DNA of 32,959 bases from a virus (IMGVR_UViG_2554235419_000004), one strand, 5' to 3'. Positions 8,296 through 32,377 are shown, numbered from the stretch's first letter. A program made the numbers and translations. The notes: a model not told the origin generated them from the sequence alone.

Positions 8296-8889
8296 CTATT
8301 TGTCCCGGTTGGCTAAGGGATGACACAATTTATTCTTTGTCGCTGATGAGGGAAATTTTTTATAGAGCGTGGACAGACCAATATCAAAAATCAGTGCCAC
8401 GCGTTGACGTGACTCCCCTGCAGCCAGCAAACGCCCGGCCTGCTCCCACTCACTCGCGGTGAGTTTCGGTCGTCTGCCACCAATACGACCTTTGGCTCTG
8501 GCCGCTTCCAGTCCGGCGCGTGTCCGCTCGACAATGAGTTCTCGTTCCATTTCGGCCAGGGCACCCATCACATGAAAGAAAAAACGCCCCATCGGCGTGC
8601 TGGTATCAATAGCATCCGTCAGGCTGCGAAAATTAACGCCGCGTTCGCGCAGCTCCTCAACCAGAATGACCAGATGCCGCATACTACGCCCCAGCCGGTC
8701 CAGCTTCCAGACTACCAGTGTATCCCCCTCCGATAATGTCCTGAGCAGTTTTTTCAGTCCCGGCCTGTCGGACTTCGTGCCGCTGATTTTGTCCTCAAAA
8801 ATCAGCTCACATCCTGCGCACTCCAGCGCGTTACGCTGCAATTCCGTATTCTGGTCATTTGTTGACACGCGTACATAGCCAATAAGCAT
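8296..8889 (-). CDS. Serine-recombinase DNA invertase (Hin/Gin/Pin/Cin family), 197 aa
   Basis: MLIGYVRVSTNDQNTELQRNALECAGCELIFEDKISG...VVWKLDRLGRSMRHL...GRFFFHVMGALAEMERELIVERTRAGL...: catalytic Ser in the VRVSTNDQ motif and a C-terminal HTH. GGGGGA Shine-Dalgarno 5 nt before the ATG at 8889. Confidence 0.9.
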   Translation of the reverse strand: MLIGYVRVSTNDQNTELQRNALECAGCELIFEDKISGTKSDRPGLKKLLRTLSEGDTLVVWKLDRLGRSMRHLVILVEELRERGVNFRSLTDAIDTSTPMGRFFFHVMGALAEMERELIVERTRAGLEAARAKGRIGGRRPKLTASEWEQAGRLLAAGESRQRVALIFDIGLSTLYKKFPSSATKNKLCHPLANRDK

Positions 8890-8944
8890 GAGCATCCCCC
8901 TGAATAAAAACCGGAGATGATGCCAGTTGCCCGTTATCTCTGCA

Positions 8945-8970
8945 TTTTCATAAACGTTGGTTTGGGAGAA
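8945..8970. other. Invertase crossover site, left (hix/gix-like, 26 bp)
   Basis: ttttcataaacgTTggtttgggagaa; its right half is the exact inverse of the left half of the 10784-10809 site; it encodes the conserved ...GLGE junction in frame. Confidence 0.75.
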
Positions 8971-9333
8971 GCGGCAAAACGGGATGTGGGTAACGGGCAA
9001 AACCAAATTCCTGATATGTCAGCGTGGGAGTGTGGGGGAGATACAACGACGGGATGGAGGCGAAGCCCGGATGGTTATATTGAACAATGGGGGCTAACTG
9101 AGGCCACAACAAATGAAGTTTTGATTAATTTTCCTATCCCATTTCCGACAGCCGTCATTTCTATTAATGAACATGACCAGGCTCCTGTGGCAGGGAAAAT
9201 GTCAGTATGGCAATTCTATAAATTGACTAACTCAAATGTCATAGCAGAGAACCTGGGATCTCTTGATAAAGGAAATCCATCCTTCAATGTTCCAACTGTC
9301 GCTGGTTGCCGCTGGTTTGCTACAGGAAGATAA
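8959..9333 (+). CDS. Alternative tail-fibre C-terminal cassette (Sv'-like), promoterless; would be fused to the H constant part only after inversion
   Basis: Open frame through the crossover site encoding ...NVGLGEAAKRD...; no plausible own start; immediately followed by the alternative assembly gene. Confidence 0.65.
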   Translation, partial: GLGEAAKRDVGNGQNQIPDMSAWECGGDTTTGWRRSPDGYIEQWGLTEATTNEVLINFPIPFPTAVISINEHDQAPVAGKMSVWQFYKLTNSNVIAENLGSLDKGNPSFNVPTVAGCRWFATGR

Positions 9334-9334
9334 A

Positions 9335-9775
9335 ATGAGTAAATATCTTTACGATGCAAAAACTAATATGTTTTACCCATTTACTCTGGAAAGTCAGTAT
9401 AAGGAGTCTGGGTTATGGCCTCATAATGGAGTTGAAGTTGATGAGGATATATTTATTAAGTACCTGTCCCCACCTCCTGGGAAGGTGAGAGTTGCGGGTG
9501 ATGATGGCTATCCTGCATGGGATGACGTACCGCCGCTAACTCATGAAGAACAACTGTCAGAAGCGGAACGAAAAAAACAGGCACTCATAAATCGAGTTAA
9601 TGAATATATTAACAGTAAGCAGTGGCTAGGAAAGGCTGCTATTGGTCGTCTGAAAGGTGAGGAACTGGCGCAATATAATTCATGGCTTGATTATCTGGAC
9701 GCACTGGAAATGGTTGATATTTCCAGTGCTCCAGATATTGAATGGCCTACGCCTCCGGCTGTTCAGGCCAGATGA
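9335..9775 (+). CDS. Alternative tail fibre assembly protein (U'-like), 146 aa
   Basis: MSKYLYDAKTNMFYPF...; C-terminus ...SSAPDIEWPTPPA parallels ...TSTAPDIIWPEQPEA of the convergent assembly gene; the 3' ends overlap on opposite strands, as in Mu U/U'. Confidence 0.75.
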   Translation: MSKYLYDAKTNMFYPFTLESQYKESGLWPHNGVEVDEDIFIKYLSPPPGKVRVAGDDGYPAWDDVPPLTHEEQLSEAERKKQALINRVNEYINSKQWLGKAAIGRLKGEELAQYNSWLDYLDALEMVDISSAPDIEWPTPPAVQAR

Positions 9776-10340
9776 TATCCGGCGCGGTGCTGGTATCTGT
9801 TGCCGTCACCGCGTCAATGTAATCCAGCACAGCGTTAAGCCGGGTTGTTTCTGCCTGCGTCAGTTTCCGCCCGGCCTGTAATTTCAGCTGAATCAGACTA
9901 ATGGAAGCCATTGCTGCATCAATCAGTGACTGGCGCTGTGCTTCTGCCGCTTCTACTGCGGCACCGTGTTGTGCCTCAGTATCTGTCACCCATTTCTCAC
10001 CATCCCATTTATCATATGGCGTTAACGGTGAAAGCGTGACATAACCGTTTTTGATGGCACCGATATAATCCACTGTAACAGCTGCGCCATTTTCGATTGA
10101 GTAAACAGTCTCATTGCGATGGTCTTCCTCATGGCTCCATCCCTTACCTGTAAATACTGCCACTCTTCCCGGAATGTTTTCGTCCGGGTCAATACCAGTG
10201 GAACAGGCGGGCATACTTACGCCAGTATTAATATATTCATCAGACCAGCCCGTATATTCAGACGTTACTGCATCATAATAAAAACAACGCATATCACCCG
10301 GCACTGTAGCCAGCCCATTTTCATCAAAAACAGGTTTCAT
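9747..10340 (-). CDS. G: Tail fibre assembly protein (gpG-like, currently in the expressed orientation), 197 aa
   Basis: 197-aa ORF directly downstream of H, start overlapping the H stop; Tfa-like C-terminus. Confidence 0.8.
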   Translation of the reverse strand: MKPVFDENGLATVPGDMRCFYYDAVTSEYTGWSDEYINTGVSMPACSTGIDPDENIPGRVAVFTGKGWSHEEDHRNETVYSIENGAAVTVDYIGAIKNGYVTLSPLTPYDKWDGEKWVTDTEAQHGAAVEAAEAQRQSLIDAAMASISLIQLKLQAGRKLTQAETTRLNAVLDYIDAVTATDTSTAPDIIWPEQPEA

Positions 10341-11623
10341 TATTTAGCCCTCACCAGAAAGTTAAATGCAATATTTCGCGGTCTGACAGCAACAAAATTC
10401 ACACCATCACCCACAGAGTTACTGTTGAAATTAAATCGTGAAAATCCTGGCTGATTTCCGGCGATGCCATCATGAAAGTTAATTGCGTGTCCAGCACCTC
10501 CGCCTATATTCCCGGCAAACTGAGAAAAGTTTGTAGCTTCCTGCCAGCTTAATAATTCGCGACCACCATCTGCACCTCGCCCGTCATCCCAGACACGAAT
10601 GAAATCACCGCGGGCTTCAGGTAATACCAGCGAAGGAAACACTTTCGCCAGCACAGGGTAATCAGAGGCAGAAAATTTCGCCCCGTTAAACTTCAAAAAC
10701 ACCATACTGGACCAGCTGTCGATTACAGTATTTGGCATTGCCGCGGAGGGCCAGAAGAACGGAACGCCAATAGCTGGAGCACCTTCTCCCAAACCAAGGT
10801 ATGCGAGAAGACCAGCCACATCTTTTCCACTCAAATGAGTCAGCGTCTCATCCAGTGGTTGCTTACCTGACAGCGCATTGTTAATGGTGGTGCTGAATTT
10901 CGGGTCATTGTTAATGGCTGCGGCAATTTCTTTCAGTGTATCCAGCGTGGCAGGCGCACCGTTAATCAGAGCGGTAATAGCGGCCTGAACAAACGCAGTA
11001 GTCGCAATCCGCGTGGTGTTATTTCCTGCGGCAGGCGTCGGCGCTTTTGGTTCTCCGGTAAATGTCGGATTATGTTTCTGGGCATACTGGGTATGAGGGT
11101 CCTGTGCGGCAATGTGGTTTCTCATCTGGTCATCCACATACAGCCTTAATTCCAGGACTTCATCATCCACGTATTTACGGGTCGCCAGTACCACCGACGG
11201 GTCGATTTTCAGCGTGATAGCTTCGGTATTCGTGACAACCAGAATCATGCGGATAGTCTGGGTACGACCGCTGCCTTCCTGTAACTGCGGTTTGTACGTT
11301 TCCGGGCAGTTCGCCACCGCAATGAGTACGCCTTCATCATCATAAAGCCCAATCTCACGGATCCAGAATCCGCCCTCGTTCTCAGGGATGATTTGCTCCG
11401 CAATAATCTGGCTCTGGTTGTTCGGGTCAACACTCAGAAGATTCAGCGGTGCAATGCGTTTCTGATTAATCAGTTTTGTCTGTGCCGGGTCTGGTGTCGG
11501 CAAGACACCATTCGCATCACCAACGGCCATTTGCGTCAGATTCAGCTTACTGCCGAGCATCGTCGCGTTAGCCAGCCGTGCTGCGCCCTGATTAGTCAGA
11601 ATGGCGTAGTATTTCACTGTCAT
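10340..11623 (-). CDS. H: Tail fibre protein gpH (constant N-terminal part plus the currently fused variable C-terminal cassette), 427 aa
   Basis: N-terminus MTVKYYAILTNQGAARLANA...MAVGDANGVLPTPDP...GGFWIREIGLYDDEGVLIAVAN resembles P2 gpH / Mu S N-termini as recalled; the crossover site is embedded at residues about 272-281. Confidence 0.85.
   Translation of the reverse strand: MTVKYYAILTNQGAARLANATMLGSKLNLTQMAVGDANGVLPTPDPAQTKLINQKRIAPLNLLSVDPNNQSQIIAEQIIPENEGGFWIREIGLYDDEGVLIAVANCPETYKPQLQEGSGRTQTIRMILVVTNTEAITLKIDPSVVLATRKYVDDEVLELRLYVDDQMRNHIAAQDPHTQYAQKHNPTFTGEPKAPTPAAGNNTTRIATTAFVQAAITALINGAPATLDTLKEIAAAINNDPKFSTTINNALSGKQPLDETLTHLSGKDVAGLLAYLGLGEGAPAIGVPFFWPSAAMPNTVIDSWSSMVFLKFNGAKFSASDYPVLAKVFPSLVLPEARGDFIRVWDDGRGADGGRELLSWQEATNFSQFAGNIGGGAGHAINFHDGIAGNQPGFSRFNFNSNSVGDGVNFVAVRPRNIAFNFLVRAK
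10784..10809. other. Invertase crossover site, right (hix/gix-like, 26 bp), inside tail fibre gene H
   Basis: ttctcccaaaccAAggtatgcgagaa; inverted relative to the 8945-8970 site with a shared 14-bp arm ttctcccaaaccaa; lies at H residues about 272-281 (YLGLGE). Confidence 0.75.
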
Positions 11624-20556: not shown

Positions 20557-22329
20557 ATGACCATCACCACAGACACCACTCTTTTACACGACCCGCGTCG
20601 TCAGGCGGCGCTGCTGTACTGGCAGGGATTTTCCGTGCCGCAGATTGCCGCCATGTTGCAGATGAAACGCCCGACGGTGCAGAGCTGGAAACAGCGCGAC
20701 GGCTGGGACAGCGTTGCCCCCATCAGCCGTGTCGAAATGAGTCTGGAAGCGCGGCTGACCCAGCTCATCATCAAACCGCAGAAAACCGGCGGTGACTTCA
20801 AGGAAATTGACCTGCTCGGACGCCAGATTGAACGACTGGCACGGGTCAACCGTTACAGTCAGACCGGCAACGAGGCAGACCTTAATCCGAACGTCGCTAA
20901 CCGCAACAAAGGCGGGCGTCGCAAACCGAAAAAGAATTTTTTCAGTGACGAGGCCATCGAAAAGCTGGAGCAGATTTTCTTTGAGCAGTCTTTCGAATAT
21001 CAGTTGCACTGGTATCGCGCCGGGCTTGAGCACCGCATCCGCGATATCCTGAAATCCCGCCAGATTGGCGCGACGTTTTATTTTTCCCGCGAGGCGCTGC
21101 TGCGCGCCCTGAAAACCGGTCATAACCAGATTTTTCTGTCGGCCAGTAAAACGCAGGCGTATGTGTTCCGCGAATACATCATCGCCTTTGCCCGGCTGGT
21201 TGACGTTGACCTGACCGGTGACCCAATTGTCCTGGGCAATAACGGCGCAAAACTGATTTTTCTCGGCACCAACTCCAACACCGCGCAGAGCCATAACGGC
21301 GACCTGTACGTCGACGAGATTTTCTGGATCCCGAATTTTCAGGTGCTCCGTAAGGTGGCATCAGGTATGGCCTCACAGAGTCACCTGCGCTCGACCTATT
21401 TCTCCACCCCATCCACGCTGGCGCACGACGCCTACCCGTTCTGGTCCGGTGAACTGTTTAACCGGGGACGCGCCAGCGCCGCCGAACGCGTGGAAATCGA
21501 CGTCAGTCATAACGCCCTTGCCGGAGGTCTTCTCTGTGCGGACGGCCAGTGGCGGCAGATTGTCACCATTGAGGACGCCCTGAAAGGTGGCTGCACTCTG
21601 TTCGACATTGAGCAGCTCAAACGCGAAAACAGCGCCGACGATTTTAAAAACCTGTTCATGTGTGAATTTGTTGACGACAAGGCATCGGTGTTCCCGTTCG
21701 AGGAGCTGCAACGCTGCATGGTCGACACGCTGGAAGAATGGGAAGACTATGCGCCGTTTGCCGCAAATCCGTTCGGCTCACGTCCGGTATGGATTGGTTA
21801 CGACCCGTCACACCGTGGCGACAGCGCCGGATGCGTGGTACTGGCACCGCCGGTGGTGGCCGGTGGCAAATTCAGAATACTTGAGCGTCACCAGTGGAAA
21901 GGCATGGACTTTGCCACCCAGGCGGAATCCATCCGCAAACTCACCGAAAAATACAACGTCGAATACATCGGAATTGATGCCACCGGCCTCGGTGTCGGCG
22001 TGTTCCAGCTCGTGCGCTCGTTCTATCCCGCCGCGCGCGATATCCGCTACACGCCGGAAATGAAAACCGCAATGGTGCTCAAGGCAAAAGACGTTATCCG
22101 CCGTGGCTGTCTGGAATATGACGTCAGCGCCACCGACATCACCAGCTCGTTTATGGCTATCCGCAAGACCATGACCAGCAGCGGACGCAGTGCCACCTAT
22201 GAGGCCAGCCGCAGCGAGGAAGCCAGCCACGCCGACCTCGCCTGGGCGACCATGCACGCCCTGTTAAATGAGCCACTCACCGCCGGTATCAGCACCCCGC
22301 TGACATCCACCATTCTGGAGTTTTACTGA
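20557..22329 (+). CDS. P: Terminase large (ATPase) subunit gpP, 590 aa
   Basis: MTITTDTTLLHDPRRQAALLYWQGFSV...; GAGG Shine-Dalgarno 8 nt upstream; length as P2 gpP; followed by Q with overlapping stop/start. Confidence 0.85.
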   Translation: MTITTDTTLLHDPRRQAALLYWQGFSVPQIAAMLQMKRPTVQSWKQRDGWDSVAPISRVEMSLEARLTQLIIKPQKTGGDFKEIDLLGRQIERLARVNRYSQTGNEADLNPNVANRNKGGRRKPKKNFFSDEAIEKLEQIFFEQSFEYQLHWYRAGLEHRIRDILKSRQIGATFYFSREALLRALKTGHNQIFLSASKTQAYVFREYIIAFARLVDVDLTGDPIVLGNNGAKLIFLGTNSNTAQSHNGDLYVDEIFWIPNFQVLRKVASGMASQSHLRSTYFSTPSTLAHDAYPFWSGELFNRGRASAAERVEIDVSHNALAGGLLCADGQWRQIVTIEDALKGGCTLFDIEQLKRENSADDFKNLFMCEFVDDKASVFPFEELQRCMVDTLEEWEDYAPFAANPFGSRPVWIGYDPSHRGDSAGCVVLAPPVVAGGKFRILERHQWKGMDFATQAESIRKLTEKYNVEYIGIDATGLGVGVFQLVRSFYPAARDIRYTPEMKTAMVLKAKDVIRRGCLEYDVSATDITSSFMAIRKTMTSSGRSATYEASRSEEASHADLAWATMHALLNEPLTAGISTPLTSTILEFY

Positions 22330-23357
22330 TGAGCAAGAAAAAAGGGAAAACACCGCAACCTGCGGCAAAAAAAATGACCGCCAGCGCCCCGAAAATGGAG
22401 GCATTCACCTTTGGTGAGCCGGTGCCGGTACTCGACCGGCGTGACATTCTGGATTACGTCGAGTGCATCAGTAACGGCAGATGGTATGAGCCACCGGTCA
22501 GCTTTACCGGTCTGGCGAAAAGCCTGCGTGCTGCCGTGCATCACAGCTCACCGATTTACGTCAAACGTAATATTCTGGCTTCAACGTTTATCCCGCACCC
22601 GTGGCTTTCCCAGCAGGATTTCAGCCGTTTTGTGCTGGATTTTCTGGTGTTCGGTAATGCGTTTCTGGAAAAGCGTTACAGCACCACCGGTAAGGTTATC
22701 AGGCTGGAAACCTCGCCGGCAAAATATACCCGCCGTGGCGTGGAGGAGGATGTTTACTGGTGGGTGCCGTCCTTCAACGAGCCGACAGCCTTCGCGCCCG
22801 GCTCCGTGTTTCACCTGCTGGAGCCGGATATCAATCAGGAGCTGTACGGCCTGCCGGAATATCTCAGCGCCCTTAACTCTGCCTGGCTGAATGAGTCAGC
22901 CACGCTGTTCCGCCGCAAGTATTACGAAAACGGCGCTCATGCCGGATACATCATGTACGTCACTGATGCCGTGCAGGATCGCAACGATATCGAAATGCTT
23001 CGCGAAAACATGGTCAAGTCGAAAGGCCGCAACAACTTTAAAAACCTGTTTCTCTATGCCCCACAGGGGAAAGCCGACGGCATTAAAATTATCCCCCTCA
23101 GTGAAGTGGCGACGAAGGACGATTTTTTTAATATCAAAAAAGCCAGCGCCGCTGACCTGCTGGACGCGCACCGCATCCCCTTTCAGTTGATGGGCGGCAA
23201 GCCGGAGAACGTCGGGTCACTGGGTGATATTGAGAAAGTGGCAAAGGTCTTTGTCCGCAATGAGCTTATCCCGCTACAGGACAGGATCCGCGAGATAAAC
23301 GGCTGGCTCAGCGCCGAAGTTATTCAATTCAAAAATTACTCTTTAGACGATAATTAA
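22329..23357 (+). CDS. Q: Portal protein gpQ, 342 aa
   Basis: 342-aa ORF downstream of P and translationally coupled to it; synteny with P2 Q. Confidence 0.85.
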   Translation: MSKKKGKTPQPAAKKMTASAPKMEAFTFGEPVPVLDRRDILDYVECISNGRWYEPPVSFTGLAKSLRAAVHHSSPIYVKRNILASTFIPHPWLSQQDFSRFVLDFLVFGNAFLEKRYSTTGKVIRLETSPAKYTRRGVEEDVYWWVPSFNEPTAFAPGSVFHLLEPDINQELYGLPEYLSALNSAWLNESATLFRRKYYENGAHAGYIMYVTDAVQDRNDIEMLRENMVKSKGRNNFKNLFLYAPQGKADGIKIIPLSEVATKDDFFNIKKASAADLLDAHRIPFQLMGGKPENVGSLGDIEKVAKVFVRNELIPLQDRIREINGWLSAEVIQFKNYSLDDN

Positions 23358-23376
23358 CCCAATATTTAGATGATAA

Positions 23377-23424
23377 TTAGCCCTAGCATTTGCCGGGGCT
23401 AATAATTGCAGGATTTTATTTTTT
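23377..23424. terminator. Hairpin plus T-rich tract between convergent Q and the cargo operon (candidate bidirectional terminator)
   Basis: ttagccc...gggctaa inverted repeat (23377-23402) followed by attttatttttt on the plus strand. Confidence 0.35.
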
Positions 23425-23988
23425 CATATTGTATATAAAGTCACAAATATGCGCCAGTGATAATCTGTTATAGTTTTCCAATGTAAACACAGGATAATTA
23501 TAGCAAATTTCAGGAGGAGGCAATTGCGAGCGAACAGTTGTTTTTTTAGCTGATTGCTGCCTCCTCGATAATTTACTTATTACACCAATGTAATCCACTT
23601 TTCTTGACAAATGCCCATGTAAATTCAATACAGAATATAGCCACTTACAAAAATGAATGCCAGTAACTACCTGTTTAGCCGCACCATTTGAGTTATAAGA
23701 TTTGAGATCTATTACGATAAAATAATCTACGTCTTTGTGCGACGTAACAAAAATTCCATCACAAACAGAGCATACTCCTGGTAAAGCAGAAGATTTTAAA
23801 AATTTCCAGACTGGTTTAGAAATACTATTAGAATCTAGCGAAAATCCATAGATACCATTTCCGTTTACCAGTAATTTTTTATTTGTAGCACCTGGGTTCT
23901 CTTCGCATACAACCCAGCATTCCTGCTCTCGCATTAATTGAAATGTAGGATCGATGCAACTTTGTATTACATTGATAATATTACTCAT
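23416..23988 (-). CDS. Unknown 190-aa protein, second gene of the AT-rich cargo operon; candidate effector of a defence system
   Basis: ATG overlaps the stop of the upstream ATPase gene (ATGAGTAA, 8-nt gene overlap); GAGGA Shine-Dalgarno; AT-rich codon usage unlike the phage backbone; no motif I can assign with confidence. Confidence 0.7.
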   Translation of the reverse strand: MSNIINVIQSCIDPTFQLMREQECWVVCEENPGATNKKLLVNGNGIYGFSLDSNSISKPVWKFLKSSALPGVCSVCDGIFVTSHKDVDYFIVIDLKSYNSNGAAKQVVTGIHFCKWLYSVLNLHGHLSRKVDYIGVISKLSRRQQSAKKTTVRSQLPPPEICYNYPVFTLENYNRLSLAHICDFIYNMKK

Positions 23989-25414
23989 CTACATCCTCAC
24001 TATCAGAGGCATTCTCCACCAAGGAGTAATATATTTCATCATTATCGTCATTAATGGCATTAATTACTTCATCAAAAGTTACAGCATTAATCCCTTCATT
24101 TGACTTCTGCATTTCATTGACTGAGCCATTATCAAATAAATACGCAGCGACTAGGTTAGAGTCTAAAATTGAGTCGATGCTAATCCCTTGCTTCTGCATG
24201 ATAGCGTTTCGTTTTTCAATCATATTTTCAGAAACGCCATGCAACATAATCAAGCTATTGATTTCTTTCACAAAATAATCACTGTGAGTACTAACAATAA
24301 CCCGAATACCAGAGTTAACTAGCTTTGCTAAAAATCTTGCAATTACTCGCTGATTTGACGGGTGTAAATTTAACTCGGGTTCGTCAATCATTAAAATATC
24401 ACCAGTTTTTGCTTGGTGCTCTAAATAAAACCACAGGCCAAACAAACTTTTAACAGTGGATGACGATAAATGAAGTTCAATTTTACTTGCAGGTGTCTTA
24501 CCTTTCTTATACGTTGAAAAATAAATCTGCCCTTCAGGATCAACTGAATATTTTCCTGAAATTATTTTTTTTACTTCTTCTGCTAATTTATGAAATTGGC
24601 CATTTTTATTTTTCCTATTAACCTTAATTTCATTAAGCCAGTCTATGTAATTTGCTATAGGAGCAGAATACTTAGACTTCATTACATCCATTAATAGTGA
24701 GTTCAGATCGAACTGTTCTTTTGAGGCGTGGTGCAATAACGCAGTTCTTCTGGAACTTAATTCATTGAAAAAAAGGTGCAAGCCATTTCTTTCTGCGGGA
24801 ATTAAAAATGCTGGGCTTTCATCATACTCTATCTTTAATAACTGACTTAGAGTTAAGTTTATAAACCCATCAATTCTGGGAAAAGCAGAATCTAGCAGCG
24901 TCATTTGTATGATATTGCTATTTTTATCTTTGGATAATAGCATTACTTCTTTTTTGCCGGTTCCTATGACGAGGCTAACATCCAATTTTTTTTCATAAAC
25001 ACTTGATACTAATGATTCTTCATCTATAACCCAGTCAAATGTTGAATTAGAAAAAATTTCCTTATCATTAGTGTTGAATACATCTTTAAGCATTAAAGAT
25101 GAATCTTTATTAAATTCTCTTTTGATTAACGTAAAATTATCTTTTATCCACTCAATTACATCTAATTCAAACTTACCATTTTCACGAAGAGTTTTGGCAA
25201 AATTTGCAACTTGAGGCAATTTTAAAGATGGTGATGGCATATTTAGGAAGCCATATAACCCATACATAACCCATGTTTTACCAGTATTATTTTTTCCGCA
25301 TAAAAGCGTTAAAGGTTTTGCATTAATTTCTCCTGTAGAGATACACCCAATGTTTTTAAATGAAAATCTCCATGATGCTAATTTTTTTACGTTAATTTCA
25401 CTTTGCTTTTTCAT
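23981..25414 (-). CDS. ABC-type / AAA15-AAA21-like ATPase (OLD/SMC-like fold), 477 aa; first gene of the cargo operon
   Basis: Walker A LLCGKNNTGKT (res 38-47); Walker B/D-loop ILMIDEPELNLHP; H-loop VSTHSD; acidic C-terminal tail; AAGGA Shine-Dalgarno; AT-rich. Confidence 0.8.
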   Translation of the reverse strand: MKKQSEINVKKLASWRFSFKNIGCISTGEINAKPLTLLCGKNNTGKTWVMYGLYGFLNMPSPSLKLPQVANFAKTLRENGKFELDVIEWIKDNFTLIKREFNKDSSLMLKDVFNTNDKEIFSNSTFDWVIDEESLVSSVYEKKLDVSLVIGTGKKEVMLLSKDKNSNIIQMTLLDSAFPRIDGFINLTLSQLLKIEYDESPAFLIPAERNGLHLFFNELSSRRTALLHHASKEQFDLNSLLMDVMKSKYSAPIANYIDWLNEIKVNRKNKNGQFHKLAEEVKKIISGKYSVDPEGQIYFSTYKKGKTPASKIELHLSSSTVKSLFGLWFYLEHQAKTGDILMIDEPELNLHPSNQRVIARFLAKLVNSGIRVIVSTHSDYFVKEINSLIMLHGVSENMIEKRNAIMQKQGISIDSILDSNLVAAYLFDNGSVNEMQKSNEGINAVTFDEVINAINDDNDEIYYSLVENASDSEDVDE

Positions 25415-25665
25415 TGAGTTTCCTTAATCAATTACATACGAACTGATCAAACCATTGATCGTGTTGAAAAGTCAATACTATACTAAATAACCACGAAGAA
25501 TAGTGCTTCATTTTCCGTCAGTCCTAATAGGTTAAGATATATGGACTGTTTTCTCAAACTTGTTGCGCTCTGCTGAATCTCTCGTATGTTACTTCAATAT
25601 GATGAACATCCTAACTCTGAAACGGTAAGTCTATCGGTATTACATTTTCACATTGCATGAGCGCG

Positions 25666-25684
25666 GTGCTTTCCCCGCCTCGCC
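25666..25684. other. cos site (19-nt cohesive-end sequence)
   Basis: gtgctttccccgcctcgcc is the reverse complement of GGCGAGGCGGGGAAAGCAC, the P2 cohesive end as I recall it; sits in a GC-rich island inside AT-rich surroundings. Confidence 0.75.
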
Positions 25685-25968
25685 CGCCCGCTTCACGGGG
25701 CGGTTTTAATGCAGTTGCATAGATACTATGGATCCGCACCAGTCCTGACCGCACGCAGCCTGAACGGACATCCCCAGCGCATGCAAAAACATTCACTTGT
25801 TGCATGCATAGCTTTTTAAGTACGCCATACCGCAACTGTACATTTTTAAGCAATTGGCAACTTTAAAAAATTTACATTGCTTTCAAGACCTTATCATCCG
25901 TAGTCTCTGTTTTTTACTTTGAGCTACATCAATAAAATCTCAAACATGTTTAATGCAAAGCCCTTGTT

Positions 25969-26022
25969 ACACAACATAGAATGTATGTCTAGAAACAACG
26001 ACATACTATATGTTGTGTTTTT
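25969..26022 (+). terminator. Long imperfect hairpin plus T-run (candidate intrinsic terminator, attenuator or sRNA 3' end)
   Basis: acacaacatagaatgtatgtc / gacatactatatgttgtgt arms (7 bp + internal loop + 10 bp) followed by TTTTT. Confidence 0.45.
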
Positions 26023-26074
26023 CCGGCTCTCTGTTCGGTGATATGCCAAATCACTTTGCGTTTAAACAGAGCAT

Positions 26075-26089
26075 TATTTCAGGGCAAGA
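26075..26089. repeat. 15-bp direct repeat caagacttcgctcaa, copy 1
   Basis: Exact match to 26349-26363; the two copies flank the small ORF and terminator. Confidence 0.6.
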
Positions 26090-26162
26090 CTTCGCTCAAA
26101 AGTCATTCCACCTAAGAAGCGCATATACCGGTGGAAGTTGCCCTCTACTTACAGGAGGCAAT

Positions 26163-26276
26163 ATGAAGAAATGCTATTACTGCATTCTCGTTCTGGCCCT
26201 CTTTGGCTATCCAAACGGTAGTCCAAGTGGTTTGTCAGTAAACGTCAGTAATATCAATGTCAGCATTATGCTTTAA
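26163..26276 (+). CDS. Small hydrophobic peptide, 37 aa (possible membrane peptide or moron product)
   Basis: AGGAGG Shine-Dalgarno 4 nt before the ATG; MKKCYYCILVLALFGYPNGSPSGLSVNVSNINVSIML; immediately followed by a strong terminator. Confidence 0.4.
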   Translation: MKKCYYCILVLALFGYPNGSPSGLSVNVSNINVSIML

Positions 26277-26285
26277 TATGCTTCA

Positions 26286-26320
26286 AACAAAAAAACCACC
26301 TGCCAGGGTGGTTTTTTTGC
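26286..26320. terminator. Bidirectional Rho-independent terminator (A7-hairpin-T7)
   Basis: aaaaaaaccacctgccagggtggttttttt: GC stem flanked by an A-run and a T-run; can terminate the small-ORF transcript (plus) and the early operon ending with A (minus). Confidence 0.7.
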
Positions 26321-26348
26321 GCCCATCATCAATACGATGAAAGACTGA

Positions 26349-26363
26349 CAAGACTTCGCTCAA
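26349..26363. repeat. 15-bp direct repeat caagacttcgctcaa, copy 2
   Basis: Exact match to 26075-26089. Confidence 0.6.
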
Positions 26364-26578
26364 GACGAATTATGCGTCGACATAAGGTTACCCGCAATGA
26401 TTTTATTAGACTAAATGGATGGCCTTTTATGACCCGGATCAAACGGCTGTCCTTACCGACATGCTAGTCACTCAATAGCATTTAGCCTTCTAATTCAGCA
26501 TGCTATTGACCTTCTGCTGCCCCATAACTGCTCCGCATAAGCCATTCAATGCCATATCAAATCACGTTGTGTTTTTAC

Positions 26579-28897
26579 TCAAATGGGTAACGAGAACCCC
26601 GGCCACTCATCAGCAACCGGATACGTGAATTTTTTCCCGTCATAATTTACGGTCGCGCCACGCGCCAGCGCCTCAAGCTCCCATCGTTGCGGCCTGATAC
26701 CGTTCTGAGCGAGGTCAACGCGGATACGGGTAATTTGCAATCGTTCAGACCTGGTCAGTCTGGCAGATGGTGCAATTTCATGCGGTTTTAACGGGATTCC
26801 GTTTCTTTGCTGACGATTTGGTGTTCTCAGTCCGTGTTTTAATGCGCCCCTGAGCACCATCACGACCTCCGGGTCACTCCATTCGATAACACCGTCATCT
26901 ACCAGATTAAGCACTGCTGCGGCGTGCTCAGAAGGTGTGGGAGCCGGTAACGAAGTATCACCACCGGTGAGCTTTCCACAGTTATTGACAGGACTCCGAG
27001 GCGCGGCGATGCCGCTTTTTAAAGTCAAAGGCTCGACGACCGGAACTTTCGGCACAATGCGCCAGTTCGTCGTTCTGGTGATATGAATATGACGCGCGCC
27101 GAGATGCGGCGCGTAAATGCCGACCACTCTCTCGACCTCTTCCTCGTACTCGTTAACGTCATCCGACGGGCTACGGGCGACCCTGACAGTCTGACAATCG
27201 CGCGGGACATTTGCCCCACCCTGCGCGCTGATATACAACGCAAAATCACCACTGTCTGCGGCGGCGCGTGCAGCCTCGACGCGCTCGTCAAACTCATCAG
27301 CAATGCTGACGCCGCGAGGCAATTTGCGTAGTTCACGGTAAGCCCCCATTGTCGGCAGGCCAACCGTTTTAAATTGCGGGATGCGCCACGTTGACGCCCA
27401 TGCGGTAACAGCCGCTGCAGTGTCTTTCAGCGGCCTGCCGGTGTCGTTATCGAGCTGACCATCCAGTGCATAGCCGTCGATGTTTTTTGAAATGTATTTC
27501 GCGATATATCCCGCAGCACCGCCCCGGTTAAGGTGTTTTGCCTGAAAACGGTTTCGCGCGGCTCCTCTTTCATCGCCATCCTCTTTGAGCGCATAGCGAC
27601 GCATGATTTCGATAATCTGGTTACGCTGGCGTGGATTACAAAAAAGCATCATATGCCAGTGCGGCGTTCCGTCGTGGTGTGGCTCGACGACACGCAAACC
27701 GTAGACCTGTAAATCATTATCCTTGAATGCCGTGCGCATCAGGCTCCAGATACGGCAGAGATAACGCTGCGCATCCTTTGGATTAAATGCCTCATCGTTC
27801 CAGCCGTGATTAAGCTGCACGGTTTTACTTTCGCCTTTTCCTACCTGACGTGTCGGATGATACTTTGACGGCGCGGTCAGCGTGATAAACATCCCCACAT
27901 CACCCTCTGCAGCGGCGTAACGCTCAATACCGGCAATGGTGTTCATCAGCTCCATCCGGCGAATTTCAGGATTAGAAATACTGCCCATCACCTTACTGAT
28001 AAGGTCGATGCGCTCGCCGGTTTCCCTATTTTCAAGGTCACACGATTTAAGAAATTCCAGATTTGCCTGGCGGCGCGCACGCACATCACGAATGGCGTGT
28101 TTACTGGCATAAGGAGAACGGTCTTTATTGACCTCCCCGACAGCTATCAGTAACGCTTCATGCCAGCGCATACGCTGGCCTTTAAGCTGATGAGTCCACC
28201 ACTCATCGTTAAACAGACGGGCAATGGCAGAATATGCCTGCCTCGTGGTCATCTGTCCTTTACGGTATTTTTTCCAGTAAAGCGGGGAAATATTGAAAGC
28301 ACGTGCAGCGCCAGCAACATGACCATACAGATGCGCCTGCGCCTCATCCGTAAACAGCGATTCTTTTTCGCCATGCGCATCCACCCAGGCATCGCAGAGT
28401 TCCTCATACATCATGAAAAGCTGCGATGAGATACGGGCGGCAAACTTTTTCAGCTCCTTGTCATTCATCCCCGGCAGACGCGCATACTGGTCACGCTCTG
28501 CCAGAAACAGCAACGACGCGTCGGTGTTCATTTCATGGCGCTGATTCACACGCTCAATGCGCGGCCATAAACGACGCTGAAAAGTGGATGTGAGGAAATA
28601 AAACCCGTGTACCGGGCTTTTATTGCGCCGGATGTAGTCATAGCGTGAAGTAAACAGCGAGCGCAAAAAGTAAGGCAGGCGGTTAATCGTGGATAAAACA
28701 CCTTGCACCTGACGCATCTCGTCACGTGTAAGGGGTCTTTCGCGCCCGACAGCCTCGCGTGGCGCGTTCCATGCATAAGCACCGGTAAACGCCTTACCGG
28801 TGCCTGCGGCAAATGCTGACGGAGGGACAAAACGCCCGGAGGCTTTAACGGCCATATGAGCCAAAAGCCTCTGAACAACGCTTGCTGAGTTGCTCAA
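26579..28897 (-). CDS. A: Replication initiation protein gpA (rolling-circle nickase), 772 aa
   Basis: 772-aa ORF at the end of the early operon; size and position as P2 gpA (761 aa as recalled). Confidence 0.85.
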   Translation of the reverse strand: MSNSASVVQRLLAHMAVKASGRFVPPSAFAAGTGKAFTGAYAWNAPREAVGRERPLTRDEMRQVQGVLSTINRLPYFLRSLFTSRYDYIRRNKSPVHGFYFLTSTFQRRLWPRIERVNQRHEMNTDASLLFLAERDQYARLPGMNDKELKKFAARISSQLFMMYEELCDAWVDAHGEKESLFTDEAQAHLYGHVAGAARAFNISPLYWKKYRKGQMTTRQAYSAIARLFNDEWWTHQLKGQRMRWHEALLIAVGEVNKDRSPYASKHAIRDVRARRQANLEFLKSCDLENRETGERIDLISKVMGSISNPEIRRMELMNTIAGIERYAAAEGDVGMFITLTAPSKYHPTRQVGKGESKTVQLNHGWNDEAFNPKDAQRYLCRIWSLMRTAFKDNDLQVYGLRVVEPHHDGTPHWHMMLFCNPRQRNQIIEIMRRYALKEDGDERGAARNRFQAKHLNRGGAAGYIAKYISKNIDGYALDGQLDNDTGRPLKDTAAAVTAWASTWRIPQFKTVGLPTMGAYRELRKLPRGVSIADEFDERVEAARAAADSGDFALYISAQGGANVPRDCQTVRVARSPSDDVNEYEEEVERVVGIYAPHLGARHIHITRTTNWRIVPKVPVVEPLTLKSGIAAPRSPVNNCGKLTGGDTSLPAPTPSEHAAAVLNLVDDGVIEWSDPEVVMVLRGALKHGLRTPNRQQRNGIPLKPHEIAPSARLTRSERLQITRIRVDLAQNGIRPQRWELEALARGATVNYDGKKFTYPVADEWPGFSLPI

Positions 28898-31363: not shown

Positions 31364-32377
31364 ATGGCAATCAAAAAACTCGATGATGGTCGATATGAAG
31401 TGGACATCCGCCCTACTGGACGTAACGGAAAACGCATCCGTAGGAAGTTTGATAAGAAAAGCGAAGCTGTCGCTTTCGAAAAATACACGTTGTACAACCA
31501 CCACAATAAAGAATGGCTATCAAAACCAACAGACAAACGACGTCTGTCGGAACTGACACAGATCTGGTGGGATTTAAAGGGTAAACACGAAGAGCATGGG
31601 AAATCTAATCTTGGAAAAATTGAAATCTTCACAAAAATAACGAATGACCCATGCGCATTTCAAATCACGAAATCCCTTATCAGCCAGTACTGCGCCACCC
31701 GAAGAAGTCAGGGTATTAAACCTTCGAGTATCAATCGTGATTTAACATGTATTAGCGGCATGTTTACAGCCCTGATTGAAGCGGAGTTATTCTTTGGTGA
31801 GCACCCTATCAGAGGGACAAAGAGGCTTAAGGAGGAAAAACCAGAAACAGGCTATCTCACACAGGAAGAAATTGCCTTACTGCTTGCAGCACTTGACGGC
31901 GACAATAAAAAGATTGCGATTCTTTGCCTGAGTACAGGAGCACGTTGGGGAGAAGCAGCTCGTTTGAAAGCAGAAAATATCATCCATAACCGCGTCACGT
32001 TTGTTAAAACGAAAACAAACAAACCACGCACCGTCCCGATCTCAGAGGCTGTTGCCAAAATGATCGCGGATAACAAACGAGGTTTTTTATTCCCTGATGC
32101 TGATTACCCTCGCTTCAGACGAACAATGAAAGCAATAAAACCAGATTTGCCAATGGGGCAAGCCACACATGCACTAAGGCACAGCTTTGCCACTCATTTC
32201 ATGATTAATGGAGGAAGTATTATCACGCTACAACGGATACTAGGTCACACGCGGATTGAGCAAACTATGGTTTACGCTCATTTTGCGCCAGAGTACCTTC
32301 AGGACGCCATTTCTCTTAATCCGCTAAGAGGTGGTACTGAGGCCGAGAGTGTCCACACAGTGTCCACAGTAGAGTAA
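31364..32377 (+). CDS. int: Tyrosine integrase, 337 aa
   Basis: C-terminal catalytic residues ...ATHALRHSFATHFM...LGHTRIEQTMVYAHF (R, H-x-x-R, Y); adjacent to attR. Confidence 0.9.
   Translation: MAIKKLDDGRYEVDIRPTGRNGKRIRRKFDKKSEAVAFEKYTLYNHHNKEWLSKPTDKRRLSELTQIWWDLKGKHEEHGKSNLGKIEIFTKITNDPCAFQITKSLISQYCATRRSQGIKPSSINRDLTCISGMFTALIEAELFFGEHPIRGTKRLKEEKPETGYLTQEEIALLLAALDGDNKKIAILCLSTGARWGEAARLKAENIIHNRVTFVKTKTNKPRTVPISEAVAKMIADNKRGFLFPDADYPRFRRTMKAIKPDLPMGQATHALRHSFATHFMINGGSIITLQRILGHTRIEQTMVYAHFAPEYLQDAISLNPLRGGTEAESVHTVSTVE

What the first reader, a model, noticed from the sequence alone, without database searches (positions are those of the whole stretch)
23345..26578. Compositional island spanning Q to A with cos in the middle; the cargo sits on the Q side of cos rather than at the old/tin position
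The stretch from the Q stop to the A stop is conspicuously AT-rich except for a GC-rich islet carrying the cos sequence (25666-25684). In P2 as I recall it, cos lies about 0.1 kb from the end of Q and the accessory genes orf91/tin/old lie between A and cos. Here about 2.3 kb including the ATPase operon is inserted between Q and cos, and the A-to-cos interval has no large gene. So the cargo occupies a different insertion point within the same packaging-proximal region, suggesting a second hotspot or a rearranged one.
Basis: partly seen in the sequence, partly recalled or inferred. Interest (0 to 1): 0.55.

Follow-up and report, generated by a model that had tools for sequence, protein, structure and literature searches.

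The report
Defence operon between portal and cos
In this P2-like prophage of E. coli W, a foreign, AT-rich two-gene anti-phage operon (PD-T4-4 type) sits between the portal gene and the DNA-packaging site instead of on the other side where phage P2 keeps old and tin; this is real, but it is a long-known second cargo slot and this exact locus is already in a published hotspot catalogue.

Summary
Observation confirmed. The window is the intact P2-like prophage at the yegQ/cyaR site of E. coli W. Between the Q stop (23357) and an exact P2 cos 19-mer (25666-25684) lie 2,308 bp at 33% GC, against 54-57% in the backbone. They carry a PD-T4-4-type operon: an ABC-type ATPase (23981-25414) and a small putative PD-(D/E)XK nuclease (23416-23988), both on the minus strand. 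The cos-to-A interval (894 bp) has no large gene, and its cargo slot is empty.

An otherwise near-identical "empty" E. coli prophage shows that 187 bp (Q 3' end, terminator tQ, spacer) were replaced by 2.3 kb. The right junction lies 5 bp from the cos 19-mer.

Interpretation supported as a second slot, not a rearrangement. In my surveys the Q-to-cos interval holds cargo in:
- 4 of 79 close P2-type relatives;
- 8 of 79 186-type relatives (at least 1.3 kb);
- 29 of 76 species-level relatives.

That cargo includes Lamassu, Olokun, Avs5 and AbiL.

It is not new. PhiCTX ctx and retrons Ec86/Ec67 occupy the same slot (Nakayama 1999; Dodd and Egan 1996). Rousset 2022 Table S5 already lists this E. 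coli W locus. Modest additions: cos is asymmetric, the two slots assort independently, and their occupancy trades off.

The parts
22329..23357 (+). Portal gene Q (342 aa). The last ~47 nt (23311-23357) are AT-rich and recoded, giving ...VIQFKNYSLDDN* instead of the canonical ...VIRFKNYSLDTDNG*. The left recombination junction lies here.
   Evidence: 98% aa identity to P2 Q over residues 1-342 of 344. Pfam Phage_portal. Junction comparison. GC 0.30 for the last 47 nt.
23342..25660 (.). The replaced stretch: 2,319 bp of foreign DNA at 33% GC. It takes the place of the canonical 187 bp (Q 3' end, terminator tQ and spacer).
   Evidence: blastn break points against the 'empty' locus L002, against L004 and against P2. 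GC figures.
23372..23407 (.). Hairpin between the convergent Q and PD-T4-4_B genes. It is a putative bidirectional terminator standing in for tQ (inference).
   Evidence: Fold energies of -16.4 and -17.3 kcal/mol, z -1.6 and -2.0. The stem is kept in L003 with a different inner stem and loop. It was not detected by the terminator scan.
23416..23988 (-). PD-T4-4_B-type small protein (190 aa), a putative PD-(D/E)XK nuclease effector. D77 and D94-L-K96 are invariant in 8 homologues.
23981..25414 (-). PD-T4-4_A-type ABC/OLD-like ATPase (477 aa). Motifs present: Walker A GKNNTGKT, Walker B ILMIDEPE and an STHS H-loop. It overlaps B by 8 nt, so the two genes form one operon.
   Evidence: PADLOC PD-T4-4_A, 2.1e-112 over the full length. 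Pfam AAA_15 and AAA_21. Translation. RefSeq WP_000744812.1.
25415..25660 (-). Leader and promoter region of the operon, read from the cos side towards Q. No promoter has been mapped.
   Evidence: The consensus scan found no minus-strand sigma-70 match here. The RBS AAGGAA upstream of the ATG was read directly from the sequence.
25659..25713 (-). 55-bp cos core, containing the 19-nt cohesive-end sequence at 25666-25684. Conserved sequence begins only about 5-7 bp on the Q side.
   Evidence: Exact 19-mer. 53 bp at 98% identity to P2. cos-anchored conservation profile across 154 loci. Junction listing.
25685..25819 (.). A-side conserved cos flank, the presumed terminase recognition side. It is shared with both P2-type and 186-type relatives and ends sharply at about 25808-25819.
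   Evidence: blastn of the A-side interval against all loci. Conservation patches at +70-80 and +110-130. Matches to the right ends of phage genomes.
25820..26578 (.). A-proximal segment at 40% GC, shared with a subset of P2-like prophages. In those relatives the A-side cargo is inserted between the cos flank and this segment. Here the two abut, so the A-side (old/tin-equivalent) slot is empty. The segment contains a conserved 37-aa ORF (26163-26276, +) and a bidirectional terminator (26288-26319).
   Evidence: RefSeq annotates no gene here.
26579..28855 (-). Replication gene A, the right-hand backbone flank of the hotspot.
   Evidence: 98% aa identity to P2 A. Pfam Phage_GPA, 3e-124.

Best explanation
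The AT-rich island is horizontally acquired defence cargo in the 'left' (cos-to-portal) slot of the cos-proximal accessory region of a P2-like prophage. The prophage is at the yegQ/cyaR site of E. coli W, which appears to be the one named Wphi2.

The region has two slots separated by the packaging site: [Q] - slot L - [cos core and A-side flank, about 160 bp] - slot R - [A-proximal segment / A]. In P2, slot R holds old, tin and orf91, and slot L is only the 167-bp tQ spacer. Here slot R is empty and slot L holds a PD-T4-4-type operon.

The operon is read from the cos side towards Q, convergent with the P-Q operon. It encodes an ABC-type ATPase and a small putative PD-(D/E)XK nuclease. By analogy with characterised nuclease-NTPase systems, the ATPase would sense or license and the nuclease would cut nucleic acid during infection by another phage. 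That mechanism is inferred from family membership and was not tested here.

The cassette arrived by allelic replacement between P2-like phages. One crossover lay in the 3' end of Q, which carries the donor's AT-rich codons. The other lay at the conserved cos core. Slot L can reach to within 5-7 bp of the nick site because the conserved, presumably terminase-binding part of cos lies entirely on the A side.
For: Shown:
- Exact cos and gene order.
- Replacement junctions against an empty allele, at 23341/25661.
- The same A side (99.3-99.7% identity) occurs with three different Q-side alleles: the window, L002 (empty) and L004 (DUF262). The same cargo, at 89% identity, occurs with a different A side in L003.
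- PADLOC PD-T4-4_A at 2e-112 and PD-T4-4_B at 1e-15. ATPase motifs and an invariant D...DxK.
- Slot L is filled in 4 of 79, 8 of 79 (at least 1.3 kb) and 29 of 76 surveyed loci, always with AT-rich DNA and with diverse defence systems.
- cos conservation is asymmetric: about -10 to +55, with patches to about +130 on the A side.
- PD-T4-4-like homologues in Pantoea and Cronobacter prophages also lie between cos and the portal gene.
- phiCTX ctx lies between cosL and Q with its own promoter. Retron Ec86 lies between a cos remnant and the portal gene in REL606.

From the literature:
- PD-T4-4 is an experimentally selected defence system (PMC9519451).
- It is classed as a PD-(D/E)XK nuclease plus P-loop NTPase that forms complexes (bioRxiv 10.1101/2025.07.10.664194).
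Against: - No virion-end or induction data exist for this prophage, so cos function with a foreign left flank is inferred. Position -1 is G rather than the usual A, as in L004.
- No promoter was found by the consensus scan.
- The validated PD-T4-4 came from an ICE-like element, not a P2 prophage, so activity of this homologue is untested.
- Survey samples are the top 80 hits by similarity. They were not dereplicated or phylogenetically corrected.
Confidence: 0.85

Rival explanations
1. Rearranged hotspot. The cargo was originally in the old/tin (A-side) position, and an inversion or transposition of the cos segment put cos on its other side.
For: Both sides of cos are AT-rich.
Against: cos has the same orientation relative to Q and A as in P2. 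The A-side flank and A-proximal segment are collinear and 99.7% identical with a prophage whose Q side is canonical (L002). The break points are the Q 3' end and -5 from cos, the same junction class seen in many unrelated cargos.
Confidence: 0.03
2. Decay of a defective prophage. Foreign DNA landed next to cos because packaging is no longer under selection, so the position has no biological meaning.
For: There are no induction data. Position -1 next to the nick differs from the majority. The E. coli W genome paper reports nothing of note in its mobile elements.
Against: Every essential P2 gene is present at 93-100% aa identity. The cos 19-mer is exact, and the 53 bp of the core that align to P2 are 98% identical. 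The same slot is filled in many independent lineages and in phages sequenced as phage genomes, namely phiCTX and phiRSY1. The prophage is conserved at 99% identity or more in 15 E. coli genome records.
Confidence: 0.07
3. The two genes are not a defence system. They would be another kind of ATPase-nuclease module, such as a PARIS- or OLD-like relative, an addiction module, or a phage replication or packaging accessory.
For: The A protein also hits AriA (1.8e-29), NsnB and the Old ATPase region. There is no Pfam or NCBIfam family for B. The B family is narrow, with 9 clusters, all from Enterobacterales where a source names the organism.
Against: The best hit by far is the full-length PD-T4-4_A model (375 bits, against 102 for AriA). 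B hits only PD-T4-4_B models. There is no DUF4435/TOPRIM partner as in PARIS or OLD. The position is one where defence systems accumulate.
Confidence: 0.05

Closest known systems
P2 old/tin/orf91 'TO region', i.e. the gpA-gpQ defence hotspot of P2-like phages (Odegrip 2006; Rousset 2022; Vassallo 2022)
   Same: Same inter-backbone interval (A to Q). It is AT-rich and cos-adjacent, and it holds non-essential anti-phage cargo transcribed away from cos and convergent with a backbone operon. Rousset's Table S5 lists this very locus.
   Different: P2's cargo is on the A side of cos. Here that side is empty and the cargo is on the Q side. The hotspot papers I text-searched for 'cos' do not separate the two sides.
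Retrons Ec86 (Eco1) and Ec67 (Eco2) in 186-related prophages (Dodd & Egan 1996)
   Same: They replace about 180 bp between cos and the terminator of a packaging gene. Here 187 bp of the same interval are replaced. In REL606 the retron lies between a cos remnant and the portal gene.
   Different: The cargo differs (a retron against PD-T4-4). In REL606 the replacement runs into the cos 19-mer and the prophage is defective. Here cos is intact.
phiCTX cytotoxin gene ctx (Nakayama 1999)
   Same: Cargo lies between cosL (1-21) and Q (1417-2469). It has its own promoter next to cos and is read towards Q.
   Different: The cargo is a virulence toxin rather than phage defence, and the phage is a Pseudomonas phage with a 21-nt cos.
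PD-T4-4 (Vassallo et al. 2022)
   Same: A two-gene operon of an AAA_15/21 ATPase and a small nuclease-like protein. The full-length HMM matches.
   Different: The validated system was in an ICE-like element. This homologue lineage lives in the cos-portal slot of P2-like prophages of E. coli, Cronobacter and Pantoea and is untested.
P4 satellite defence hotspot adjacent to cos (Rousset 2022)
   Same: Variable defence cargo directly abuts the shared 55-bp P2/P4 cos core.
   Different: A different element and different flanking genes. It was not examined here.

Membership tests
P2-like cos-proximal accessory hotspot (gpA-gpQ) | Lies between the portal gene Q and the replication gene A of a P2-family genome | tested here: met
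   Q is 22329-23357 and A is 26579-28855. Both are 98% identical in aa to P2.
P2-like cos-proximal accessory hotspot (gpA-gpQ) | Contains the P2-type cos site | tested here: met
   Exact 19-mer at 25666-25684 and a 53-bp core at 98% identity to P2.
P2-like cos-proximal accessory hotspot (gpA-gpQ) | Content varies between otherwise syntenic relatives and is compositionally foreign | tested here: met
   Empty, DUF262 and PD-T4-4 alleles on the same backbone. GC is 0.33 against 0.54-0.57.
cos-to-portal ('left') slot, sensu Dodd & Egan 1996 / Nakayama 1999 | Cargo lies between cos and the stop or terminator of the portal gene, replacing the ~170-180 bp spacer | tested here: met
   2,319 bp replace 187 bp of L002. 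The same layout occurs in phiCTX and REL606.
cos-to-portal ('left') slot, sensu Dodd & Egan 1996 / Nakayama 1999 | cos remains functional for packaging | not testable with these tools
   Only sequence integrity can be shown. Virion end mapping is needed.
P2 TO region (old/tin position, A side of cos) | Cargo lies between A/orf91 and cos | tested here: not met
   The cos flank (to 25819) abuts the A-proximal segment, which in relatives lies beyond the cargo. There are no tblastn hits for orf91 or tin, and old matches only a 43-aa stretch inside the PD-T4-4_A ATPase gene.
PD-T4-4 defence system | A-type ATPase matching the PD-T4-4_A profile over its full length | tested here: met
   PDLC04033, 2.1e-112, residues 16-465 on profile positions 2-458 of 460. 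Walker A and B present.
PD-T4-4 defence system | Adjacent B-type small protein (PD-(D/E)XK nuclease) | tested here: inconclusive
PD-T4-4 defence system | The two genes form one operon | tested here: met
   Same strand with an 8-nt overlap (23981-23988).
PD-T4-4 defence system | Protects against phage (T4 in the original screen) | not testable with these tools
   Needs cloning and a plaque assay.
PARIS (AriA/AriB) | AriA ATPase plus an AriB DUF4435/TOPRIM partner | tested here: not met
   AriA is a secondary hit (1.8e-29, against 2e-112 for PD-T4-4_A). The partner protein hits only PD-T4-4_B models.

The most novel reading that the evidence does not exclude
The published 'single' gpA-gpQ hotspot of P2-like phages is really two independently assorting cargo slots, insulated by an asymmetric cos. 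The left slot can reach to 5-7 bp from the nick. The two slots share one packaging budget: when the left slot is filled, the right interval is about half as long (median 1.4 against 2.8 kb, n=106, p=6e-6, uncorrected for relatedness). The left slot is minor in E. coli P2-type phages (about 5%) but common across Enterobacterales (about 38% of species-level loci). Catalogues that pool the two sides may therefore mis-score co-occurrence and exchange of defence systems.
Probability: 0.55. Interest if true: 0.35.

Novelty: already known. Interest (0 to 1): 0.25.

Why it matters
For annotation, the island is a PD-T4-4-type anti-phage operon carried by a probably intact P2-like prophage of the industrial strain E. 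coli W. RefSeq calls the two genes only 'AAA family ATPase' and 'hypothetical protein'.

For phage biology, the locus is a clean example that the cos-proximal hotspot has two sides, a point the older literature noted. After cos cleavage, the left-slot cargo lies at the extreme left end of the virion DNA. Because cos recognition lies on the A side, foreign DNA is tolerated almost up to the nick.

The slot trade-off and the independent assortment I measured could refine how defence-system turnover in P2-like phages is analysed. Neither changes what is known about the kind of element.

Tried and rejected
- Rfam scan of 23200-26800 at E<=1: only sub-threshold noise (RNAI-like and Phe-leader-like hits on the terminator hairpin).
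- Consensus promoter scan: no minus-strand promoter upstream of the operon, and fewer hits than in shuffles.
- NCBIfam: nothing specific for either cargo protein or for the small ORF.
- Megablast of the island against the phage collection: no deposited phage carries this cassette. Only the cos region and the A-side segment match.
- The window is not phage Wphi, although it comes from the same host strain. Wphi has the canonical 188-bp Q end.
- An exact-pattern cos search in REL606 failed because only the first 13 nt of cos survive there. The remnant was found by blastn instead.
- Odegrip 2006 (PMC1367236) is not held in the library.
- The 'rearranged hotspot' reading was rejected. See the rival explanations.
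Full report
**What the window is.** The 4.4 kb around the finding is 100% identical to E. coli W (NC_017664, NC_017635) and to derived strains. tblastn with all P2 proteins shows a complete P2-type prophage in prophage order, from ogr at 1638-1853 to int at 31364-32374. Every essential gene is 93-100% identical to P2. There are no matches to orf30, fun(Z), orf91 or tin, and old matches only a 43-aa stretch inside the cargo ATPase gene. The left end of the window is a peptidase-U32 host gene, which I take to be yegQ. The E. coli W genome paper lists a P2 prophage 'Wphi2' at the cyaR locus (PMC3032704), so this is probably that prophage; the link rests on my recollection that yegQ neighbours cyaR. 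It is not the sequenced phage Wphi, whose Q ends 188 bp from the genome end.

- Sliding GC falls from 51-60% to 29-36% between about 23300 and 25600. It rises to about 46% over cos and stays at 38-43% until the A stop.
- The stretch 23342-25660 is 33.1% GC. The two genes in it have GC3 of 0.28, against 0.55-0.70 for P, Q and A.
- The 55-bp cos core is 69% GC, and 25820-26578 is 40%.
- The P2 cohesive-end 19-mer occurs once, exactly, at 25666-25684, in the orientation expected from the gene order.
- In the P2 reference, cosL is 1-19, tQ is 160-181 and the Q stop is 187. orf91, tin and old lie between A and cosR.
- Here Q-to-cos is 2,308 bp and cos-to-A is 894 bp.

**What the cargo is.**
- The 477-aa protein (23981-25414, minus strand) matches PADLOC PD-T4-4_A over its full length (2e-112). 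AriA, NsnB and the Old ATPase region are far weaker. It also matches Pfam AAA_15 and AAA_21.
- It has Walker A (GKNNTGKT), Walker B (ILMIDEPE) and STHS motifs.
- The 190-aa protein (23416-23988, minus strand) overlaps it by 8 nt and hits only PD-T4-4_B models (1e-15).
- Its nine homologue clusters come from Enterobacterales wherever a source names the organism, and the eight aligned members share an invariant D77 and D94-L-K96. This fits the published classification of PD-T4-4 as a PD-(D/E)XK nuclease plus a P-loop NTPase that form a complex (bioRxiv 10.1101/2025.07.10.664194).
- PD-T4-4 was recovered experimentally as an anti-T4 system from an ICE-like element (PMC9519451). Activity of this homologue is inferred, not shown.

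**How the cargo got there.**
- An E. coli prophage with a canonical Q side (L002) is collinear with the window up to 23341 and again from 25661. Its A side is 99.7% identical to the window's. So 187 bp (Q 3' end, tQ and spacer) were replaced by 2,319 bp.
- L004 has the same A side (99.3%) but a DUF262 gene pair in the Q-side position. L003 has the PD-T4-4 cassette at 89% identity with a different A side carrying three small genes and DUF3850. The two sides therefore assort independently.
- The right junction is always 5-7 bp from the 19-mer, after a conserved GCGCG(CA).
- The left junction falls either just after tQ (L026, L044) or inside the last codons of Q. In the second case those codons are rewritten in AT-rich codons that encode nearly the same peptide (window, L003, L004, L070, L089).
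- This is the signature of allelic exchange between P2-like phages with crossovers in Q and at cos. E. coli W itself carries three P2-type elements.

**Why DNA can be inserted so close to the nick.** I anchored 154 loci on cos. Conservation runs from about -10 to +55, with further patches to about +130, all on the A side. On the Q side it falls to background beyond -10. blastn shows that the A-side flank is shared with both P2-type and 186-type relatives and ends sharply at window 25808-25819. In L049, L053 and L065 the A-side cargo lies between that flank and a 764-bp A-proximal segment. In the window these two abut, so the old/tin-equivalent slot here is literally empty.

**How common the left slot is.**

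| Sample | Loci with cos found | Canonical Q-to-cos | Enlarged Q-to-cos |
|---|---|---|---|
| IMG/VR, closest P2-type (80 loci) | 79 | 74 at 156-170 bp | 4 at 1.4-2.3 kb (one is this prophage); 1 is shortened |
| IMG/VR, 186-type (80 loci) | 79 | 61 | 10 at 380-488 bp; 8 at 1.3-1.7 kb |
| One genome per species (80 loci) | 76 | the rest | 29 at 0.56-4.0 kb |

- All this cargo is AT-rich relative to Q, and most of it is read towards Q.
- PADLOC finds Lamassu, Olokun, Avs5, an AbiLi-like ATPase, an NsnA/PD-T4-2-like protein, PDC-M03, PDC-M11, PDC-M18, PDC-S49 and PDC-S02. About half of the proteins have no hit.
- PD-T4-4-like operons whose B proteins are 54% (Pantoea-type) and 67% (Cronobacter) identical to this one also lie between cos and the portal gene of P2-like prophages.
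- When the left slot is filled, the cos-to-A interval is shorter (median 1.4 against 2.8 kb; Mann-Whitney p=6e-6, n=106). The total stays at about 3.0-3.7 kb, which suggests a shared packaging budget.
- These samples are similarity-ranked, not dereplicated and not phylogenetically corrected.

**Comparison with what is known.**
- PhiCTX carries ctx, with its own promoter, between cosL and Q.
[quoted passage not shown] I confirmed in REL606 that the Ec86 effector and reverse-transcriptase genes lie between a cos remnant and the portal gene.
- Askora et al. [quoted passage not shown]
- The modern defence literature treats gpA-gpQ as one hotspot 'adjacent to the cos site' (PMC9122126; PMC13586616).
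- Rousset's Table S5 already lists 'NC_017635 AAA_15/AAA_15/AAA_21 + hypothetical, WP_000744812 + WP_001350078', which is this locus.

**Verdict.** The finding is an already catalogued instance of an already described arrangement. The modest additions here are:
- the PD-T4-4 assignment;
- the exact junctions;
- the empty right slot;
- the asymmetry of cos;
- the occupancy figures and the trade-off.

Interest is low to moderate.

Noticed in passing
window 26163-26276 (+), with 26085-26099 and 26349-26363: A conserved 37-aa ORF (MKKCYYCILVLALFGYPNGSPSGLSVNVSNINVSIML) has a perfect RBS (ACAGGAGG) and is followed by a strong bidirectional terminator at 26288-26319. The ORF is kept, mostly through synonymous changes, in loci that are 86% identical (L041, L065). 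RefSeq does not annotate it, and it has no Pfam, NCBIfam or PADLOC hit. An exact 15-nt direct repeat (CAAGACTTCGCTCAA) flanks it. It may be a small hydrophobic, toxin-like peptide.
   Followed up: partly
window 8296-10340: At the P2 Z/fun position there is a serine DNA invertase (Resolvase + HTH_7, 8296-9006, minus strand). Next to it are oppositely oriented tail-fibre C-terminus and tail-fibre-assembly genes. This looks like a Mu Gin / P1 Cin-type invertible host-range switch. The tail-fibre gene H (10340-11623) is only 42% identical to P2 H over its N-terminal part.
   Followed up: partly
window 23311-23357: The last ~15 codons of the portal gene are rewritten in AT-rich codons that encode almost the same C-terminus, two residues shorter than in P2. 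The same is true in other prophages with left-slot cargo. The end of an essential gene therefore travels with the cargo cassette.
   Followed up: yes
NZ_CP026085.1 and NZ_CM135829.1: Two RefSeq genomes labelled 'DH5alpha' carry this region at 100% identity. As far as I know, K-12 DH5alpha should have no intact P2-like prophage, so these records are probably mislabelled W-type strains.
   Followed up: no
L249 (REL606) 39800-39826: In the retron Ec86 prophage of E. coli B only the first 13 nt of the 186-type cos 19-mer survive (GGCGTGGCGGGGA, then divergent sequence). The retron replacement therefore appears to run into cos in this defective prophage.
   Followed up: partly
L109 13275-14387: Left-slot cargo in a Kosakonia prophage has a PDC-M11A homologue split into two adjacent ORFs (176 and 193 aa) that match the N- and C-terminal halves of the profile. 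It is either a frameshifted pseudogene or a natural split.
   Followed up: no
L187, L189, L192, L193, L195, L197, L215, L227, L229, L237: Ten 186-type prophages have an intermediate Q-to-cos interval of 380-488 bp at 42-48% GC. That is too short for a typical defence gene. The content was not examined and could be a small ORF or an sRNA.
   Followed up: no
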